A stretch of DNA of 64,000 nucleotides from Shigella phage SP21535, in the sequence record PQ615101; one strand, given 5' to 3'. Positions 13,493 through 59,504 of this stretch are shown here, in pieces; within the stretch, counting starts at the first letter, position 1, and every line of letters begins with the position of its first letter. The notes beneath the pieces are model-generated. The model was not told the origin of the DNA. It was given only the letters and a program-made list of their open reading frames with translations, and did no database searches. The position numbers and the translations under genes were made by a program.

Positions 13493-14023
<531 letters not shown>

Positions 14024-14027
14024 AGTT

Positions 14028-14057
14028 GTTTACTTTCTCCTAGAACTGTGATAGTAT
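14028..14057 (+). promoter_or_regulatory. early promoter with -10 inside inverted repeat
   Basis: GTTTAC..AACTGTGA TAGTATAT TCACAGTT. Confidence 0.55.
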
Positions 14058-14100
14058 ATTCACAGTTACTAATTAAAATATTTACATTTAAAGGAAACAT

Positions 14101-14575
14101 ATGAAAACATATCAAGAATTTATTACTGAAGCAGCTATTAATTCTCAAAATTATTGCTGAATCTTTTACTGATCTTTTGAAATTTAAAAAAGGACAGAAA
14201 ATTACTGCTGTATTAGATGATGGTACAGAAGTTGAGATGGATGTACAGGGATATAATTATGCAGTAGATGGAAAACTGTATAATAAATCTCATGCTAAAT
14301 TTGATTCATTTGATGATTTTGTTAATACAGTTGAAGATGAAAAAACTCGTCGATCCATTGCAACTGGTGATGCTAAGGTTCTTATGGCGCATGGACATGA
14401 ACGTATTCGCGCTAAACAGAATAAAATGGGTGAAGATAATTTCGCATTAGTTGGTTATCAATCTGGTAAACAAACTTATGGTTATCAGCGTACTGCTACC
14501 ATGTATAATAAAAATGGTAAAATCGCTTTCGTGAATAGTAAAGGTTCTATTCAGTACGTTAAATCGTTCAAATAA
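14101..14575 (+). pseudogene. internal-protein-like gene (MKTYQEFITEA targeting motif) interrupted by a frameshift
   Basis: ATG frame stops after 19 codons (..AINSQNYC*); downstream 132-aa frame is open from 14105 but has no ATG; shift maps near A4 run 14147-14150. Confidence 0.5.
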
Positions 14576-14716
14576 TATGGGAACAACCTGGACCTCATGA
14601 TTCTGTGAGGGATTCCCGCCAACCTGTAATAAGGTCGAGCCCAAGTGCGGTAATGGGTAAATACAGAAATGGACAATTCATGCGCCATGGAATGGCCCAA
14701 ATTTAGAGAGAATAAA

Positions 14717-15259
14717 ATGAGAACATTTTTAACTGGTCCTTATCTATCCCTGATGAATGCTTTTACACACCATTCTGATGCTAGAGTAGAAGAAATTTGT
14801 AATAGTGGATTTTATGTACCTGATTCGTCGCATTTATTTAAAGAATATTGTACACTTCGACTAGACGGTGGACGTCAATCCGGTAAATCAACTGCAGTAA
14901 CTAATTTTGCCGCTAATTGGTTGTATGATGGTGGAACAGTTATTGTTCTTTCTAATACTTCAGCTTACGCTAAAATTTCTGCGGGCCGCATTAAAAAAGA
15001 ATTTTCTCGTTATTCTAGCGATGATATTCGATTCCGTTTATTTACTGATTCTGTCCGTAGTTTTGTTGGTAATAGAGGTAGCAAGTTCAGAGGTTTATCG
15101 CTTTCTCGAATTTTGTATATAATCGATGAGCCTGTTAAATCTCCTGATATGGATAAAATTTACGATATTCATATTGAAACTGTGCAACACTGCTGCAATA
15201 GTAAATGCTGCATTGGTGGTATTACTCGTCCACAGTTTTTCATAATCGGAATGCAATGA
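14717..15259 (+). CDS. P-loop NTPase-like protein
   Basis: Walker A GGRQSGKST; track ORF 14669..15259, ATG 14717 has GAGAG SD. Confidence 0.55.
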   Translation: MRTFLTGPYLSLMNAFTHHSDARVEEICNSGFYVPDSSHLFKEYCTLRLDGGRQSGKSTAVTNFAANWLYDGGTVIVLSNTSAYAKISAGRIKKEFSRYSSDDIRFRLFTDSVRSFVGNRGSKFRGLSLSRILYIIDEPVKSPDMDKIYDIHIETVQHCCNSKCCIGGITRPQFFIIGMQ

Positions 15260-16175: not shown

Positions 16176-16434
16176 AGACATTAAAGGTTATAAGCCACAT
16201 ACTGACGATAAAATCAGTAAAGTGAATGCTATCAAAGACGCTGAAGTTCGTTTAGGACTTATCTTTGATGCTTTATACGATGAATTCTGGGAAGCATTAG
16301 ATAATTGTGAAGACTGCGAATTCGCAAAGAATTATGCTGAAAGCCTCGATCAGTTAACTATTGCTAAAACGAAACTCAAAGAAGCCAGTATGTGGGCTTG
16401 TCGTGCTGTGTTCCAACCAGAGGAAAAATACTAA
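16168..16434 (+). CDS. hypothetical protein
   Basis: 88 aa ORF. Confidence 0.5.
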   Translation: MIEDIKGYKPHTDDKISKVNAIKDAEVRLGLIFDALYDEFWEALDNCEDCEFAKNYAESLDQLTIAKTKLKEASMWACRAVFQPEEKY

Positions 16435-16711
16435 TGGCTCAATTAAGCGCAGGGTTTGGTTATGAGTATTATACTGCCCTCGTCGTGTATCTGTTGCTCC
16501 TAAGAAAATTCAAAGTCTTGATGACTTCCAGGAAGTAGTTCGTAACGCTTTCCAGGACTATGCACGTTATCTTAAAGAAGATTCACAGGACTGTCTCGAA
16601 GAAGATGAAATTGCTTACTATGAGCAGCGTCTTGAACAGCTCAAAAATCTACATGAGGTTCGTGCAGAAGTTTCAAAGTCTATGAATAAATTGATTAGAT
16701 TTAAAGAATAA
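16434..16711 (+). pseudogene. small gene upstream of regB with a frameshift (possible pseudogene, recoding site or sequence error)
   Basis: ATG 16434 frame stops after 34 codons; the -1 frame codes a clean 81-codon segment (..[31 protein letters not shown]..) with no start; junction near CCC run 16476-16478. Confidence 0.45.
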
Positions 16712-31665: not shown

Positions 31666-32139
31666 ATGTTATTGACTGGCAAATTATACAAAGAAGAAAA
31701 ACAGAAATTTTATGATGCACAAAACGGTAAATGCTTAATTTGCCAACGAGAACTAAATCCTGATGTTCAAGCTAATCACCTTGACCATGACCATGAATTA
31801 AATGGACCAAAAGCAGGAAAGGTACGTGGATTGCTCTGTAATCTCTGTAATGCAGCAGAAGGTCAAATGAAGCATAAATTCAATCGTTCTGGCTTAAAGG
31901 GACAAGGTGTTGATTATCTTGAATGGTTAGAAAATTTACTTACTTATTTAAAATCCGATTACACCCAAAATAATATTCACCCTAACTTTGTTGGAGATAA
32001 ATCAAAGGAATTTTCTCGTTTAGGAAAAGAGGAAATGATGGCTGAGATGCTTCAAAGAGGATTTGAATATAATGAATCTGACACTAAAACACAATTAATA
32101 GCTTCATTTAAGAAGCAGCTTAGAAAGAGTTTAAAATGA
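31666..32139 (+). CDS. 49: endonuclease VII (Holliday junction resolvase)
   Basis: 157 aa; matches T4 EndoVII as I recall it, including zinc-binding CLICQ..CNLC. Confidence 0.9.
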   Translation: MLLTGKLYKEEKQKFYDAQNGKCLICQRELNPDVQANHLDHDHELNGPKAGKVRGLLCNLCNAAEGQMKHKFNRSGLKGQGVDYLEWLENLLTYLKSDYTQNNIHPNFVGDKSKEFSRLGKEEMMAEMLQRGFEYNESDTKTQLIASFKKQLRKSLK

Positions 32140-32673
32140 CGATTGAAAAAGAAATTGAAGGATTAATTCATAAAACTAATAAAGACCTTTTAAACGAGAA
32201 TGCTAATAAAGATTCTCGTGTTTTTCCAACTCAACGGGACCTTATGGCTGGTATTGTGTCTAAACATATTGCCAAAAATATGGTCCCGTCTTTTATTATG
32301 AAAGCGCATGAAAGCGGAATTATTCACGTGCACGATATTGATTATTCCCCTGCTCTTCCATTTACTAATTGCTGTTTAGTAGATTTAAAAGGAATGCTTG
32401 AGAATGGATTTAAGCTCGGTAATGCACAGATTGAAACTCCTAAATCAATCGGTGTTGCTACTGCAATTATGGCACAAATTACTGCGCAGGTTGCTTCTCA
32501 TCAATATGGCGGAACGACTTTTGCGAATGTAGATAAAGTACTTTCTCCTTATGTTAAACGCACCTACGCAAAACATATTGAGGATGCGGAAAAATGGCAA
32601 ATCGCTGATGCATTGAATTATGCTCAATCTAAAACAGAAAAAGACGTATACGATGCATTCCAGGCGTATGAGT
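32136..32673 (+). CDS. nrdD: anaerobic ribonucleotide reductase NrdD, exon 1
   Basis: ORF 32136..32681; 5-prime splice site placed after U32673 by a 6-bp P1 pairing of exon AUGAGU with GCUCAU in the intron. Confidence 0.75.
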
Positions 32674-33706
32674 TAATTTAATTCAGGCTCATGTAAAACC
32701 GGTCTAAACGGGGAACCTCTCTAGTAGACAATCCCGTGCTAAATGTTCTTTTGAACTAAATGCCTAACGACTAACCGTGATGAATGTAGCGGTGTAGAAT
32801 AGAAGCTAATGCTATTCGAAACGGCCGGCATCGAAAGATGAAGATATAGTCTAATCTGCATGGCGACATGCAGCAGTCATCTTGTATAAATAAGATTATC
32901 TTATGAATACGAGGTGAAACAATGAAATGGATAAAAAGACGTTGTACTAAAATAAAAGATAAAGACGCATTTACATACTTAGTTAAGTTTTCTAATGGCG
33001 ACATTTATATCGGTTATAAAAAATTTAGAACAATTAAAAACAAGCCCACAAACTGGAAAACTTACACAACGTCATCTAAGTATATAAATGAACGCTTAAA
33101 AACTGATACACCTACTAAATGGATAATTTTAAAAACATTTGATAGTTATAAAGATGCATTAAAACATGAAGAAGAGGTCATACGTAAATATTTTTATAGC
33201 AAAAAATGTTTAAATAAATCCATAGGCGGTAAAAAGTTTTATAAGCATCCGGATACTGAAGAACATATTCAAAAATTAAGAGATGCTCATAAGGGTAAAG
33301 TGTTATCCGAATCTCATAAAAACAATATAAAATCTTCTGTAGCTGAATATTATGCTAAAAACGGAAGATCTAAGGAACATGTGCAAAATAATATCAATAG
33401 TCGAAAAAGTAAAAAACAAGTATCGATAAAGCTTAAAAATAAAACTTTTAGAAGTTTTAAAAAAGCAGCGGAATATTTAAATTGCACTGAAAGTGAAGTC
33501 GAAACTCATCCTCTTGTTTTGAGTATTAAGACTACTATTCATAAAGTTCCTGAATATGTGGTTGTTGACGGTATTAAGTATACGTCTTATATAGAAGCAG
33601 CTAAAGCGCTAAATTTTCATCCTAGCACTATAAAAGAACGTTGCATATCTATGGACTATCCAAATTTTGTTGTTTCATATAAACGGGCATGAATTTGCGA
33701 CTCATG
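32674..33706 (+). mobile_element. group I intron in nrdD (T4 nrdD/sunY-type) carrying I-TevII
   Basis: Starts UAAUU like the T4 td intron; core CUAAACGGGGAACCUCUCUAGUAGACAAUCCCGUGCUAAAU; inferred length 1033 nt equals the T4 nrdD intron. Confidence 0.75.
32922..33692 (+). CDS. I-TevII: intron-encoded GIY-YIG homing endonuclease I-TevII
   Basis: 256 aa ORF inside the intron; FTYLVKFSNGDIYIGYKK motif. Confidence 0.8.
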   Translation: MKWIKRRCTKIKDKDAFTYLVKFSNGDIYIGYKKFRTIKNKPTNWKTYTTSSKYINERLKTDTPTKWIILKTFDSYKDALKHEEEVIRKYFYSKKCLNKSIGGKKFYKHPDTEEHIQKLRDAHKGKVLSESHKNNIKSSVAEYYAKNGRSKEHVQNNINSRKSKKQVSIKLKNKTFRSFKKAAEYLNCTESEVETHPLVLSIKTTIHKVPEYVVVDGIKYTSYIEAAKALNFHPSTIKERCISMDYPNFVVSYKRA

Positions 33707-34998
33707 CTGAATATAATGATGAAGTAAATACACTTTTCAGCTCTAATGGACAAACGCCTTTTGTAACAATTACATTTGGTACGGGAACTGACTGGACTGA
33801 ACGAATGATTCAGAAAGCAATTCTGAAAAATCGTATTAAAGGTCTTGGTCGTGATGGGATAACTCCTATTTTCCCTAAGCTTGTTATGTTCGTTGAAGAA
33901 GGTGTTAATCTTTATAAAGACGATCCGAACTATGATATTAAGCAGCTTGCTCTAGAGTGCGCAAGCAAAAGAATGTATCCTGATATTATTTCAGCTAAGA
34001 ACAATAAAGCTATCACTGGTTCATCTGTTCCTGTTTCTCCGATGGGATGCCGTAGTTTCTTGAGCGTATGGAAAGATTCGACTGGCAATGAAATTCTTGA
34101 TGGACGTAATAATCTTGGTGTTGTAACATTGAATCTTCCTCGCATCGCGTTAGATTCTTATATTGGAACACAGTTCAATGAACAGAAATTTGTTGAATTG
34201 TTCAATGAGCGAATGGATTTATGTTTTGAAGCTTTGATGTGTAGAATTAGTTCCTTAAAAGGAGTTAAAGCGACTGTTGCTCCTATTCTTTACCAAGAAG
34301 GTGCATTCGGGGTTCGTCTTAAACCTGATGACGATATAATTGAGTTATTTAAAAACGGCAGAAGTTCAGTGTCTTTGGGATACATTGGTATTCACGAATT
34401 AAATATTCTTGTCGGTCGTGATATTGGACAAGAAATTTTAACTAAAATGAATGCTCATCTTAAACAGTGGACTGAAAGAACCGGATTTGCTTTTAGTTTA
34501 TATTCGACTCCTGCTGAAAACCTTTGTTACCGCTTCTGTAAACTTGATACAGAAAAATATGGAAGTGTAAAAGATGTTACCGATAAAGGCTGGTACACTA
34601 ATAGTTTCCATGTTTCAGTAGAAGAAAATATTACTCCGTTTGAAAAGATTTCTCGTGAAGCGCCATATCATTTCATTGCGACAGGTGGTCACATTTCTTA
34701 TGTTGAACTTCCTGATATGAAAAATAACTTAAAAGGCCTTGAGGCCGTGTGGGATTATGCTGCACAACATTTAGATTATTTTGGTGTTAATATGCCAGTA
34801 GATAAATGTTTTACATGCGGAAGCACCCATGAAATGACTCCTACTGAAAACGGATTTGTTTGTTCTATTTGTGGAGAAACTGATCCTAAAAAGATGAATA
34901 CAATAAGAAGAACATGCGGATATCTTGGAACTCCTAGCGTTGTTCCATGGAATTTAGGTAAAATGAAAGAAATGGTAAAACGAGTAAAACATGCATAG
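33707..34998 (+). CDS. nrdD: anaerobic ribonucleotide reductase NrdD, exon 2
   Basis: 3-prime splice after G33706, exon 2 begins CUGAA (P10 pairing); C-terminal glycyl radical motif RRTCGYLG; combined product about 609 aa. Confidence 0.75.
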
Positions 34999-53889: not shown

Positions 53890-54819
53890 ATGTCTATTGC
53901 AGATTTAAAATCCCGTTTGATTAAAGCTTCCACTTCTAAAATGACTGCTGAACTGACTACATCTAAATTCTTTAATGAAAAGGATGTAATCCGTACAAAA
54001 ATCCCAATGCTTAATATCGCTATTTCTGGCGCGATTGATGGCGGCATGCAGTCTGGTTTAACTATTTTCGCAGGGCCTTCTAAACACTTTAAATCAAATA
54101 TGTCTTTGACTATGGTTGCGGCATATTTAAACAAATATCATGACGCAGTTTGTCTATTCTATGATAGCGAATTTGGTATTACTCCAGCTTATTTGCGATC
54201 CATGGGAGTTGACCCGGAACGAGTAATTCATACGCCAATTCAGTCAGTTGAACAGCTGAAAATTGATATGGTGAACCAGCTTGAAGCTATTGAGCGTGGT
54301 GAAAAGGTTATTGTATTCATCGACTCAATCGGTAATATGGCTTCTAAGAAAGAAACGGAAGATGCCTTGAATGAAAAATCTGTGGCAGATATGACTCGTG
54401 CTAAATCACTGAAGTCATTATTCCGTATTGTTACTCCTTATTTTAGCATTAAAAATATTCCATGTGTTGCGGTTAACCATACAATTGAAACAATTGAACT
54501 GTTTAGTAAAACCGTGATGACAGGTGGTTGTGTTATTGCTGGTACTAAAATCCAGATGTCCGATGGTTCTACTAAAGCAGTTGAAGATATTCGTCCAGGT
54601 GAGCGTGTTAAAACCATGGTCGGTGATAATGAAGTAACTTATGTTTGGGACCCCGAAACTCTGGCTGAAGGTACTCCTGAATGTTTCGAAATTGAATTCG
54701 AAGACGGTTATAAAGTAACTACTTCAGATACTCACAAGTTCCTGGTAATGGTTAAAGACATTCCAACTTGGGTTGAAGCTAAAGATTTAGTAGCTGGAAT
54801 GGATTGTGTTGTAAGGTAA
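53890..54819 (+). CDS. uvsX: UvsX recombinase N-terminal fragment (residues 1-213) fused in frame to a putative intein N-half
   Basis: First 213 aa match T4 UvsX up to ..FSKTVMTGG (Walker A GPSKHFKS); then 96 aa starting with Cys; ends TAA TAA. Confidence 0.85.
   Translation: MSIADLKSRLIKASTSKMTAELTTSKFFNEKDVIRTKIPMLNIAISGAIDGGMQSGLTIFAGPSKHFKSNMSLTMVAAYLNKYHDAVCLFYDSEFGITPAYLRSMGVDPERVIHTPIQSVEQLKIDMVNQLEAIERGEKVIVFIDSIGNMASKKETEDALNEKSVADMTRAKSLKSLFRIVTPYFSIKNIPCVAVNHTIETIELFSKTVMTGGCVIAGTKIQMSDGSTKAVEDIRPGERVKTMVGDNEVTYVWDPETLAEGTPECFEIEFEDGYKVTTSDTHKFLVMVKDIPTWVEAKDLVAGMDCVVR
54529..54816 (+). other. putative split-intein N-terminal half (Int-N, 96 aa)
   Basis: Begins CVIAGTKIQMSDGS (block A Cys1), contains TTSDTHKF (block B TxxH); absent from T4 uvsX. 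Confidence 0.65.
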
Positions 54820-54822
54820 TAA

Positions 54823-54864
54823 ATATGGGTACCGGACTAATGTATATTTTTGAGGTACCCATAT
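54823..54864 (+). promoter_or_regulatory. hairpin sequestering the endonuclease RBS and start codon
   Basis: Perfect 11-bp inverted repeat ATATGGGTACC (54823-54833) / GGTACCCATAT (54854-54864), 20-nt loop; 3-prime arm covers GAGG SD and A,T of ATG 54863. Confidence 0.6.
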
Positions 54865-55585
54865 GAATTTTGTCTATAAAATTGTGTTCAACGATAGAAT
54901 TAAAAACGGCACTCCGCCATATTACTACATAGGGAGCAAGACAAATGCTTCTTATGTAGATGGTAAGATTATTGACGCCCACGGTCGTGAGTACTATGGC
55001 TCATCGAGATATCCCGGATATCATGATTTTATCAATAATGTTACTGTTGAAATATTGGAGCAATATGATGATATTAAACACACTAAACTGCTAGAGCGCG
55101 AAAATTTCTATCAGAAACAAGTAAATGTTAAAACAAATCCAGATTATTTTAATTTAGATTATGCTTGTGGGCATAATTCATATGCTAATGCTGATTTTGC
55201 ATCATACAAGCATTATATAACAGGTAAATGTATTCGTCTTGAAAGAAACCATCCGCTTGTTAAATCTGGTGTGTATGTTGGCGTCACAAAAGGCGTGAAA
55301 TCTTCTGATGAACACCGCAAGCACATATCAGAAGGTATTACCGGAGAAAACAATGGGTTCTATGGTAAGAAACACACTAAAGAAACAATTAATAAAATAT
55401 CAGAAAAAGCAAAGAAAAGATTAAAGCATTCCCATCCTAGACAAAAAGGTGTTATCATAAACGGTATTGAATACCGGGGCGTCAGACCTGCTGCAAGAGC
55501 GTTGGGAATTAATCCTAACACAATTATCAACAAAATTAAAGCTAATATAAAAGGATGGGCTTATGCAGTAGATGCACGCGGTTAA
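54863..55585 (+). CDS. free-standing GIY-YIG homing endonuclease between the two uvsX fragments
   Basis: 240 aa; VYKIVF..YYIGSK GIY-YIG-type N-terminus, NUMOD-like linker repeats, C-terminal helix-turn-helix-like region. Confidence 0.75.
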   Translation: MNFVYKIVFNDRIKNGTPPYYYIGSKTNASYVDGKIIDAHGREYYGSSRYPGYHDFINNVTVEILEQYDDIKHTKLLERENFYQKQVNVKTNPDYFNLDYACGHNSYANADFASYKHYITGKCIRLERNHPLVKSGVYVGVTKGVKSSDEHRKHISEGITGENNGFYGKKHTKETINKISEKAKKRLKHSHPRQKGVIINGIEYRGVRPAARALGINPNTIINKIKANIKGWAYAVDARG

Positions 55586-55693
55586 GGCATTCGAAGATAT
55601 GGTAAAAGAATTTGGAATGAACATGACAATCAAGATTATGCTTTCATGAAATATGTATATTGAAACTAGCTACTACGAAACACAAGGTAAAGT

Positions 55694-55798
55694 ATGAAAA
55701 TTAAATCTGTTAAATCTGTTGGTAAAAAAGAAGTCTATGATTTGTCTGTTGCTGACGTCGAGCATTATGTTTTAGAAAATGGTATCGTTACACACAAC
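55694..55798 (+). other. putative split-intein C-terminal half (Int-C, 35 aa)
   Basis: Ends His-Asn followed by Thr +1 extein residue; block F/G-like VYDLSVADVEHYVLENGIVTHN. Confidence 0.65.
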
Positions 55799-56341
55799 AC
55801 AGGCGTAATGTATTCGGCTGATACTGTATTCATTATCGGTAAGCGCCAGATTAAAGATGGTTCTGATCTTCAGGGGTATCAATTTGTTCTAAATGTAGAA
55901 AAATCTCGTACCGTTAAAGAAAAAAGTAAATTCTTTATTGATGTTAAATTTGACGGTGGCATCGATCCTTATTCTGGATTGTTAGATATGGCTCTTGAAT
56001 TAGGATTTGTGGTAAAACCTAAAAATGGCTGGTATGCTCGTGAATTTCTTGACGAAGAAACAGGCGAGATGATTCGCGAAGAAAAATCTTGGCGTGCAAA
56101 AGATACCAACTGCACTACATTCTGGGGTCCTTTATTTAAGCATCAGCCATTCCGAGATGCTATTAAACGTGCTTATCAGTTAGGTGCTATTGATAGTAAT
56201 GAAATTGTTGAAGCTGAAGTTGATGAATTAATTAACTCAAAGGTTGAAAAATTTAAATCTCCAGAAAGTAAAAGTAAATCAGCAGCTGATTTAGAAACTG
56301 ACCTAGATCAGTTAAGTGATATGGAAGAATTTAATGAATAA
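55694..56341 (+). CDS. uvsX: putative intein C-half (35 aa) fused in frame to UvsX C-terminal fragment (180 aa)
   Basis: Own AAGG SD and ATG; ..VYDLSVADVEHYVLENGIVTHN then TGVMYSADTVFIIGKRQ.. matching T4 UvsX C-terminal region. Confidence 0.85.
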   Translation: MKIKSVKSVGKKEVYDLSVADVEHYVLENGIVTHNTGVMYSADTVFIIGKRQIKDGSDLQGYQFVLNVEKSRTVKEKSKFFIDVKFDGGIDPYSGLLDMALELGFVVKPKNGWYAREFLDEETGEMIREEKSWRAKDTNCTTFWGPLFKHQPFRDAIKRAYQLGAIDSNEIVEAEVDELINSKVEKFKSPESKSKSAADLETDLDQLSDMEEFNE

Positions 56342-59339: not shown

Positions 59340-59504
59340 ATGAAAACATATAAAGAATTTATTAAAGAAGATATGGTAGCTGGAGATTCAGGTGGTAATC
59401 CTGAAAATATCTCTACTGGAACAACGTCAGGCGCTGTAGTAAATAAAGGTCCTGAACAGATTCCTAAAAAGAAAAAAGAGGAATCTAAAGAAAAAGAAGA
59501 GTAA
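59340..59504 (+). CDS. small acidic protein with capsid-targeting-like N-terminus
   Basis: 54 aa by manual translation; MKTYKEFIKED.. resembles the MKTYQEFIAEA targeting motif. Confidence 0.4.
   Translation: MKTYKEFIKEDMVAGDSGGNPENISTGTTSGAVVNKGPEQIPKKKKEESKEKEE

What the first reader, a model, noticed from the sequence alone, without database searches (positions are those of the whole stretch)
14101..14575. Internal-protein-like gene next to e is broken by a frameshift at an A-run
ATG 14101 opens with an almost exact capsid targeting sequence (MKTYQEFITEA) but the frame stops after 19 codons. The +1 frame then codes 132 aa with no ATG. Removing one A from AAAA 14147-14150 would fuse them into a ~150-aa protein. 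This is either a pseudogenised internal protein gene, a sequencing error at a homopolymer, or a slippage site.
Basis: seen in the sequence. Interest (0 to 1): 0.5.

Follow-up and report, generated by a model that had tools for sequence, protein, structure and literature searches.

The report
Frameshifted ip4 internal head-protein gene
In this T4-like phage, the known and dispensable gene for the injected internal head protein Ip4 is knocked out by one extra A near its start, which is either an ordinary recent loss-of-function mutation or a one-base sequencing error.

Summary
ATG 14101 opens a capsid-targeting sequence (MKTYQEFITEA), and the frame stops after 19 codons (TGA 14158-14160). The +1 frame then runs to 14575. 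The gene is ip4/ipIV (Pfam DUF7412), the internal head protein that sits next to e in T2 and about 300 other Tequatrovirus records, where it is an intact 157-aa ORF. The only lesion is CAAAT to CAAAAT (14147-14150). Codons 17-157 are 100% identical to T2 IpIV.

The 4-A allele is absent from every collection searched. I found no support for programmed frameshifting or a contingency switch at this site. The run is only 3 to 4 A, it is not conserved, no RNA structure is predicted, and a stop follows three codons later.

Whether the lesion is a real mutation or a base-calling error cannot be settled without reads; I put it at roughly 60:35.
- **For a real mutation:** none of the window's 80 runs of 6 or more bases has a private length change, and ip4 is naturally disrupted in about 2.6% of public contigs by at least 8 different lesion types.
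- **For an artefact:** a second unique 1-nt homopolymer frameshift breaks vs.3 2.3 kb away, and neither gene shows any decay.

The finding is ordinary and of low interest.

The parts
14028..14067 (+). Early-promoter-like element and stem-loop between e and ip4. It comprises GTTTAC at 14028-14033, a -10-like TAGTAT at 14052-14057, and the inverted repeat AACTGTGA (14044-14051) / TCACAGTT (14060-14067).
   Evidence: Read directly from the sequence. The homologous stretch in phage SA20RB is annotated by its depositors as a T4 early promoter overlapping a rho-independent terminator. The generic sigma-70 and terminator scan did not flag it.
14090..14100 (+). Ribosome-binding region (AAAGGAAACAT) upstream of the ip4 start. 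It is identical to IME537 and F2; T2 and SA20RB differ at one base.
14101..14160 (+). 5' fragment of ip4: 19 codons plus TGA. It encodes the capsid-targeting sequence MKTYQEFITE, then AAINSQ, then three out-of-frame residues (NYC).
   Evidence: The CTS is compared with T4 ipII and ipIII.
14147..14150 (+). The lesion: AAAA where every relative has AAA, a +1 insertion at codons 16/17.
   Evidence: No 100% match among 307 phage records covering the stretch. Zero exact matches in viral, genome or metagenome contigs.
14150..14575 (+). Stranded body of ip4: codons 17-157 plus TAA, in the +1 frame. It is 100% identical in protein sequence to T2 IpIV and has no start codon with a usable ribosome-binding site.
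14186..14191 (+). A6 tract inside ip4 (gene positions 85-90), intact in the window. In other public assemblies it is the recurrent site of A6-to-A7 and A6-to-A5 frameshifts.

Best explanation
This is ip4 (ipIV), a known accessory gene of T2-type Tequatroviruses. Its product carries the 10-residue capsid-targeting sequence that loads a protein into the prohead core. It is then trimmed by the prohead protease at I/L-x-E motifs (Glu10 and Glu20 are invariant in the family) and injected with the DNA.

In this phage a single A inserted in an AAA run at codons 16/17 shifts the frame inside the propeptide. Translation from the intact promoter, ribosome-binding site and ATG therefore yields only a 19-residue CTS peptide. 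All, or nearly all, of the mature protein is left untranslated: residues 11 or 21 to 157, depending on which site is cleaved.

I judge it most likely a genuine and very recent loss-of-function mutation from replication slippage, fixed by drift or a plaque-purification bottleneck, or because Ip4 is not needed on the current host. In other words, it is a fresh pseudogene.

Shown here: the lesion, its uniqueness, and the identity of the gene. Inferred: that the lesion is real rather than a base-calling error; that Ip4 is packaged and injected; and that its role is anti-defence, by analogy with Ip1, Ip2, Ip3 and Bas37_0260, which all inhibit type IV restriction systems.
For: **Identity and lesion**
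- establish the gene and the lesion.
- The repaired protein matches Pfam DUF7412 with E = 5.7e-96 and phrog_3155, 'internal virion protein'.
- Depositors annotate the gene as ipIV or Ip4 in T2 and SA20RB.
- Glu10 and Glu20 are invariant across 13 family members.

**Dispensability of internal proteins**
- Ip genes are described as non-essential, and Ip1, Ip2 and Ip3 each block one GmrSD variant (PMC12373910).
- ipIII was lost in three of five experimentally evolved T4 populations, at a host-range cost (10.1101/2022.04.14.488369).
- Another CTS-bearing protein, Bas37_0260, inhibits McrBC (10.1101/2025.11.20.689424).

**Evidence that real ip4 knock-outs occur in nature**
- 17 other contigs carry disrupted ip4, against about 640 with the intact gene.
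- The lesions include substitutions that cannot be homopolymer errors: Q5* in phage REP1, and ATG to ACG in 4 samples.
- Others are a 2-nt deletion, +T, -T, and A6+1 or A6-1 in at least 7 contigs.

**Evidence against a homopolymer-error-prone assembly**
- None of the window's 80 runs of 6 or more bases has a window-private length change. Of these, 57 match all relatives and 19 could not be compared. The 4 that differ are changes specific to a relative, or an allele shared with other phages.
- The two non-coding 'private' indel sites I tested are both present at 100% identity in other phages.
- Of 618 relative-ORF comparisons against three relatives, only ip4 and vs.3 are frame-broken.
Against: - No reads are available, and the source genome is in none of the collections searched.
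- The window has a second unique 1-nt homopolymer change, CCCC to CCC, which breaks vs.3 only 2.3 kb away and is absent from 496 records. Two private frameshifts so close together could share a technical cause.
- Neither gene shows any decay downstream of its lesion. The ip4 body is 100% identical to consensus, and the vs.3 region differs from its best hits only by the gap. This fits an artefact as well as it fits a very recent mutation.
- In cultured-phage records ip4 is almost always intact and is extremely conserved: 290 of 470 records are at least 99% identical in protein sequence. Loss is therefore rare.
Confidence: 0.6

Rival explanations
1. The lesion is a sequencing or assembly artefact. 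The phage really has AAA and an intact 157-aa ip4, and the extra A is a consensus base-calling error. The missing C in vs.3 would be the same kind of error.
For: - Both frame-breaking differences are +/-1 changes in mononucleotide runs. They lie 2.3 kb apart and each is unique among 300-500 related records.
- Everything else in both genes is identical to relatives.
- The 4-A allele is found in no collection.
- T-even DNA carries modified cytosines, which can disturb some base-callers. This last point is from general knowledge and was not tested here.
Against: - Platform homopolymer errors concentrate in long runs. Yet all 80 runs of 6 or more bases in the window are free of private changes, including two A6 tracts inside ip4 itself, while the lesions sit in runs of 3 to 4.
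- No essential gene in the 64 kb is broken.
- The other candidate private indels I tested are natural alleles shared with other phages.
Confidence: 0.34
2. The site is a programmed recoding or phase-variable site. Ribosomal +1 frameshifting, transcriptional slippage, or reversible DNA slippage at the A run (a contingency locus) would produce full-length Ip4 in a fraction of events.
For: - Reversible frameshifting at homopolymers of 6 or more bases has been reported as a bet-hedging device in T2 and T4 (PMC12633550).
- The A6 tract of ip4, 36 nt downstream, shows recurrent +1 and -1 alleles in other assemblies.
Against: - The run here is A3 in relatives and A4 in the window, well below the 6-base threshold used in that study.
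- No relative shares the allele, so nothing is conserved.
- The 0 frame hits TGA three codons after the run, with no slippery heptamer and no upstream SD-like stimulator.
- The local RNA fold is unremarkable, z = -1.17.
- In that same study, T2 ipIV was the authors' example of an SSR with zero mutant reads in five populations.
Confidence: 0.03
3. The downstream frame is expressed on its own from TTG 14177 or ATG 14237. It would be a CTS-less cytoplasmic protein with a function that does not need packaging.
For: - Gene callers do call the 132-aa and 112-aa products on other disrupted alleles.
- IPIII lacking its CTS still works when supplied from a plasmid in the host.
Against: - There is no Shine-Dalgarno-like sequence at a usable distance before either start.
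- The 157-aa form, with invariant CTS and cleavage glutamates, is the conserved state in all 13 family clusters.
- A protein made only after infection cannot do the 'first-response' job of an injected protein (inference).
Confidence: 0.03

Closest known systems
IpIV / Ip4 internal head protein of phage T2 and relatives (Pfam DUF7412, phrog_3155)
   Same: It occupies the same locus immediately downstream of e, and has the same promoter and ribosome-binding context. The CTS is identical, and residues 17-157 are 100% identical.
   Different: The window copy has one extra A at codons 16/17, so the ORF is split. All 307 phage records covering the site have AAA.
T4 internal proteins IpI, IpII and IpIII
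   Same: They share the N-terminal capsid-targeting sequence MKTYQEFI(A/T)EA, and ipIII and ipII sit next to e. They are non-essential, and they are injected anti-restriction factors that each inhibit one GmrSD variant.
   Different: There is no sequence similarity beyond the CTS, and the Pfam families differ (IpIII is PF26861, seen). No target or function has been reported for Ip4: my literature searches found none.
Natural ip4 null alleles in other assemblies, for example phage REP1 (OQ174500.1), annotated as a 132-aa 'internal virion protein'
   Same: The lesions fall in the 5' part of the gene, within its first ~90 nt, and leave the same stranded downstream ORF with an unchanged protein sequence.
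   Different: The lesions themselves differ: Q5* nonsense, ATG to ACG, a 2-nt deletion, +T, -T, and A6+1 or A6-1. The window's +A at positions 47-50 is seen nowhere else.
Phage contingency loci (Gomez, Barrick and Waters 2025 preprint, PMC12633550)
   Same: A +/-1 change in a mononucleotide run inactivates an accessory gene of a T-even phage.
   Different: Those loci are defined by repeats of 6 or more bases with a measurably raised, reversible mutation rate. Here the run is only 3 to 4 bases, and T2 ipIV's own long repeat gave zero mutant reads in that study.

Membership tests
T-even internal proteins (CTS-bearing, injected) | N-terminal capsid-targeting sequence MKTYQEFIxE | tested here: met
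   MKTYQEFITE at 14101-14130. It matches T4 IpII and IpIII at 10 of 11 residues. The DNA pattern is found twice in the window against 0 expected.
T-even internal proteins (CTS-bearing, injected) | Prohead-protease cleavage motif (I/L-x-E followed by a small residue) at the end of the CTS | tested here: met
   ITE/A at residues 8-11, which are still encoded in the window's 19-codon fragment. Glu10 and Glu20 are invariant in 13 family members. This is sequence evidence only; cleavage itself was not tested.
T-even internal proteins (CTS-bearing, injected) | CTS fused in frame to a cargo protein (intact ORF) | tested here: not met
   The frame breaks at codon 17 and stops at codon 20. The window copy is a disrupted member of the family.
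T-even internal proteins (CTS-bearing, injected) | Protein present in the capsid and injected with the DNA | not testable with these tools
   This needs virion proteomics or an injection assay.
Ip4 / DUF7412 (PF24183) | Full-length match to the family profile above the curated cut-off | tested here: met
The downstream frame is 99% identical to cluster representative P0003.
Programmed ribosomal frameshift site | Frameshift configuration conserved among relatives, with a slippery motif and a stimulator | tested here: not met
   All relatives are in frame with AAA. The sequence has no slippery heptamer and no SD-like stimulator. The RNA fold gives z = -1.17.
Phage contingency locus | Mononucleotide repeat of 6 or more bases at the site, with recurrent +/-1 variation | tested here: not met
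   The site is A3 in relatives and A4 in the window. None of 307 records varies there. The separate A6 tract at 14186-14191 does vary recurrently in other assemblies, but it is intact in the window.

The most novel reading that the evidence does not exclude
ip4 may be a gene under antagonistic selection that phage populations repeatedly switch off. It is almost invariant in protein sequence across about 300 phages, yet at least 8 different knock-out or knock-down lesions occur in independent assemblies. Its A6 tract has mutated in both directions (A7 and A5) on several genetic backgrounds.

That pattern would fit an injected anti-defence protein that is also sensed by some other host defence, with the A6 tract acting as a contingency switch. 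On this reading the window's +A is one more escape allele.

The evidence does not exclude this, but there is no baseline for other accessory genes. The lesions were also found by a look-up that can only see disruptions in the 5' part of the gene.
Probability: 0.1. Interest if true: 0.5.

Novelty: already known. Interest (0 to 1): 0.15.

Why it matters
On its own the finding matters little. It is a private null allele, or a one-base error, in a known and dispensable accessory gene.

**Practical value**
- The ORFs at 14101-14160 and 14177-14575 should be annotated as one disrupted ip4 gene, not as two hypothetical proteins.
- The base count at 14147-14150, and at 16477-16479 in vs.3, should be verified before the genome is used.

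**Biological value, if the lesion is real**
- The phage is a natural Ip4-minus strain. No function has been reported for Ip4, whereas every CTS-bearing internal protein studied so far inhibits a specific type IV restriction system.
- Comparing this phage with an AAA-repaired derivative on a panel of wild E. coli would therefore be a cheap way to find Ip4's target.

Tried and rejected
- **Finding the window's source genome or reads.** The frameshift-specific products (the 34-aa vs.3 fragment and the 309-aa UvsX fragment) are not on record. None of the contigs examined that carry the 132-aa or 112-aa ip4 products has the +A allele. Exact-pattern scans of viral, genome and metagenome contigs found nothing.
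- **Structure-based function for Ip4.** Only 14 homolog clusters exist, all at least 64% identical. The AlphaFold2 model is poor, with mean pLDDT 53.6 and pTM 0.45, so I ran no fold search. The best PDB sequence hit was a weak partial match to a designed protein (7on6, E = 5.8e-4), which I judged not meaningful.
- **Rfam.** Nothing significant lies near ip4 or in the GC-rich spacer at 14576-14717.
- **Programmed frameshift or contingency switch at the A run.** Rejected, as set out under the rival explanations.
- **General excess of private homopolymer indels as a mark of a poor assembly.** Not found.
- **IMG/VR as a source of more ip4 loci.** Only 3 loci were returned, too few for a frequency estimate.
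- **A control for how often other accessory genes are disrupted.** I could not design one with the exact-product look-up, so the 2.6% figure for ip4 has no baseline.

Full report
**What the window is.** The region carries T4 lysozyme gene e at 13529-14023, preceded by nudE and followed by vs.7, vs.6 and regB homologs. The closest public genome over 24 kb is Escherichia phage PD112 at 97.4% identity. The window is therefore an unsampled Tequatrovirus.

**Checking the observation.**
- ATG 14101 sits behind AAAGGAAACAT and encodes MKTYQEFITEAAINSQNYC, then TGA at 14158-14160.
- The +1 frame is open from 14105 to 14575. It has no ATG before 14237, and its first possible start is TTG 14177.
- A megablast of 14024-14720 found 745 phage records. 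The best hits span 696 bases against the 697-base query.
- In those records the locus holds a single 474-nt CDS. It is annotated 'internal virion protein', 'ipIV: IpIV internal head protein' in T2 (LC348380.1), or 'Ip4 internal head protein' in SA20RB.
- The DNA alignment shows one frame-relevant difference: CAAAT in all four relatives against CAAAAT in the window.
- From codon 17 onward the window's +1 frame is 100% identical to the 157-aa protein, which is itself identical in IME537, F2, T2 and SA20RB.
- The CTS claim also holds. T4 ipIII and ipII begin MKTYQEFIAEA, and a degenerate CTS pattern occurs twice in the window against none expected.

**What the gene is.**
- The repaired protein matches Pfam DUF7412 end to end with E = 5.7e-96, and PHROG 3155, 'internal virion protein'.
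- The family is narrow. It has 14 clusters at 90% identity, all at least 64% identical to the query and all from T4-like phages of enterobacteria.
- A tblastn found it in 470 phage records. Of these, 290 are at least 99% identical in protein sequence, and about 160 Klebsiella, Salmonella and Raoultella phages are about 70% identical.
- Met1, Lys2, Phe7, Glu10 and Glu20 are invariant.
- Glu10 ends the CTS (I-T-E/A), and Glu20 ends a second I/M-x-E motif. The mature protein therefore probably starts at residue 11 or 21. The frameshift at codons 16/17 lies in the propeptide, upstream of all or nearly all of the mature protein.
- T4 has ipIII, ipII and denV at this position. The window has the T2-type arrangement, e followed by ip4.
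- The e-ip4 spacer carries a GTTTAC...TAGTAT early-promoter-like element overlapping a stem-loop. SA20RB's depositors annotate the homologous stretch as promoter plus terminator.

**How unusual the allele is.**
- None of the 307 phage records covering a 121-nt stretch around the site matches at 100%. The best is 120 of 121 bases, the gap being the only difference.
- The exact 4-A pattern is absent from IMG/VR, from one genome per GTDB species, and from JGI metagenomes. The 3-A pattern is present in IMG/VR.

**Is it programmed?**
- The run is A3 in relatives and A4 here.
- The 0 frame reaches TGA three codons after the run, so compensation downstream is impossible.
- The sequence has no slippery heptamer and no SD-like stimulator.
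- The 156-nt RNA around the site folds no better than shuffled sequence, z = -1.17.
- Nothing is conserved, because no relative shares the configuration.
- A 2025 preprint reports reversible homopolymer frameshifts ('contingency loci') in T2 and T4. It defines them by repeats of 6 or more bases, and uses T2 ipIV as its example of a repeat with zero mutant reads in five populations (PMC12633550).
- I therefore reject recoding or switching at this site.

**Real mutation or artefact?** I compared the whole window with PD112, CE1 and F1.
- Of the 618 relative ORFs (three relatives) with a hit of at least 85% identity in the window, only two genes are frame-broken against all three relatives, ip4 and vs.3.
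- vs.3 starts at ATG 16434. It has CCC at 16477-16479 where all 496 matching records have CCCC, and the best hits differ from the window only by that gap.
- Two unique 1-nt homopolymer frameshifts 2.3 kb apart, each in an otherwise perfectly conserved gene, is what a base-calling problem would look like.

Three observations point the other way.
- The window has 80 runs of 6 or more bases. Of the 61 whose flanks could be matched in relatives, 57 have the same length as all of them. The 4 that differ are changes specific to a relative, or an allele shared with other phages. None is private to the window. Platform homopolymer errors should hit these long runs first, including the two A6 tracts inside ip4.
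- The two non-coding sites that looked private against the three relatives (59508, and 37279/37315) are present at 100% identity in other phages.
- Real ip4 knock-outs clearly exist, as the next section shows.

**Natural ip4 knock-outs.** I looked up the exact 132-aa (TTG-start) and 112-aa (ATG-start) products that a gene caller would emit from a disrupted ip4. This found 17 contigs. Their lesions are:
- Q5* (CAA to TAA) in phage REP1, OQ174500.1.
- ATG to ACG in four samples.
- A 2-nt deletion at gene positions 9-10.
- +T at position 38.
- -T at position 69.
- A6 to A7 at positions 85-90 on at least four contigs, including a 167-kb gut-metagenome contig.
- A6 to A5 on three contigs.

The intact protein and its near-identical variants are on about 640 contigs, so roughly 2.6% of copies are disrupted. 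The caveats are that this look-up can only see lesions in the 5' part of the gene, that only part of the cluster was listed, and that I have no baseline for other genes.

Weighing these points, I put a genuine recent mutation at about 0.6 and an artefact at about 0.34. Only reads can decide.

**Consequence if the lesion is real.**
- Translation from the intact start makes a 19-residue CTS peptide.
- No start with a usable ribosome-binding site precedes the stranded body. Any product from TTG 14177 or ATG 14237 would also lack the CTS and could not be packaged.
- Internal proteins are described as non-essential. Ip1, Ip2 and Ip3 each inhibit one GmrSD variant (PMC12373910).
- ipIII is lost readily in experimental evolution, at the price of not infecting ECOR17 (10.1101/2022.04.14.488369).
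- A further CTS-bearing protein, Bas37_0260, inhibits McrBC (10.1101/2025.11.20.689424).
- No function for Ip4 turned up in the library.
- By analogy, and this is inference only, the phage would plate normally on laboratory hosts and lose the ability to overcome whichever defence Ip4 blocks.

**Function from structure.** This led nowhere. The best PDB sequence hit was a weak partial match to a designed protein, which I judged not meaningful. The AlphaFold2 model from the shallow alignment is unreliable, with mean pLDDT 53.6, so I did not search folds.

**Verdict.** The thing is ordinary: a one-base frameshift, or a one-base error, in a known and dispensable gene. The only mildly interesting by-product is the catalogue of independent ip4 knock-outs, with an A6 tract that has slipped in both directions in several assemblies. 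That would deserve a proper baseline analysis.

Noticed in passing
window 16434-16711 (+): A second private frameshift. vs.3 (92 aa in relatives, phrog_2037, function unknown) has CCC at 16477-16479 where all 496 matching phage records have CCCC. The frame breaks after codon 15 and stops at 16536-16538, and the remaining 77 codons are intact in another frame up to TAA 16709-16711. It lies next to vs.4 (Acb2/Tad1-type, as marked by Pfam on the related loci).
   Followed up: yes
L022-L037 (public contigs carrying disrupted ip4); the equivalent window position is the A6 tract at 14186-14191: ip4 is independently disrupted in 17 other public contigs by at least 7 lesion types: Q5*, ATG to ACG, a 2-nt deletion, +T, -T, A6 to A7 and A6 to A5. 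The A6 tract has changed in both directions on several genetic backgrounds. Elsewhere the protein is at least 99% identical across 290 phage records. There is no baseline for other genes.
   Followed up: partly
window 53890-56341 (+): uvsX is a 'fractured' gene in three ORFs.
- ORF 53890-54819 is the UvsX N-half fused to an intein N-part (weak, below-threshold Hint and Intein_splicing matches; ...TGG/CVIAG...).
- ORF 54863-55585 is a free-standing NUMOD3-motif protein, presumably a homing endonuclease.
- ORF 55694-56341 is an intein C-part (...VTHN/T) fused to the UvsX C-half.
PD112, CE1 and F1 have an uninterrupted uvsX. The insertion is in only about 8 of 411 related phage records (for example SYGD1, BYEP01 and HY03), where it is annotated as separate recombinase and endonuclease genes.
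   Followed up: partly
window 59340-59504 (+): A 54-aa ORF just upstream of primase gene 61, annotated as 61.1 in relatives. It starts MKTYKEFIKE/D, a near-perfect capsid-targeting sequence followed by a Gly/Ser/Lys/Glu-rich tail. It may be another small packaged protein.
   Followed up: no
window 14576-14717: A 142-nt GC-rich spacer between ip4 and the next gene, whose likely start is ATG 14718. Some relatives annotate an upstream ATG at the equivalent of 14669. The spacer is conserved in the closest relatives and has no Rfam match. Several relatives carry an insertion of about 326 nt somewhere in this ip4-to-next-gene interval.
   Followed up: partly
window 32136-34995 (+): nrdD is interrupted by a group I intron (Rfam RF00028, 32638-32873, 70.6 bits). 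The intron carries a homing-endonuclease ORF at about 32922-33470. PD112 lacks this interruption, while CE1 and F1 have one.
   Followed up: partly
L018 12085-12460 (phage F1, NC_054912.1 58584-58959): A public relative annotates a 'starvation-inducible transcriptional regulator' gene as two overlapping CDS, where PD112 has a single CDS. Frame-broken accessory genes are therefore not rare in deposited T4-like genomes.
   Followed up: no
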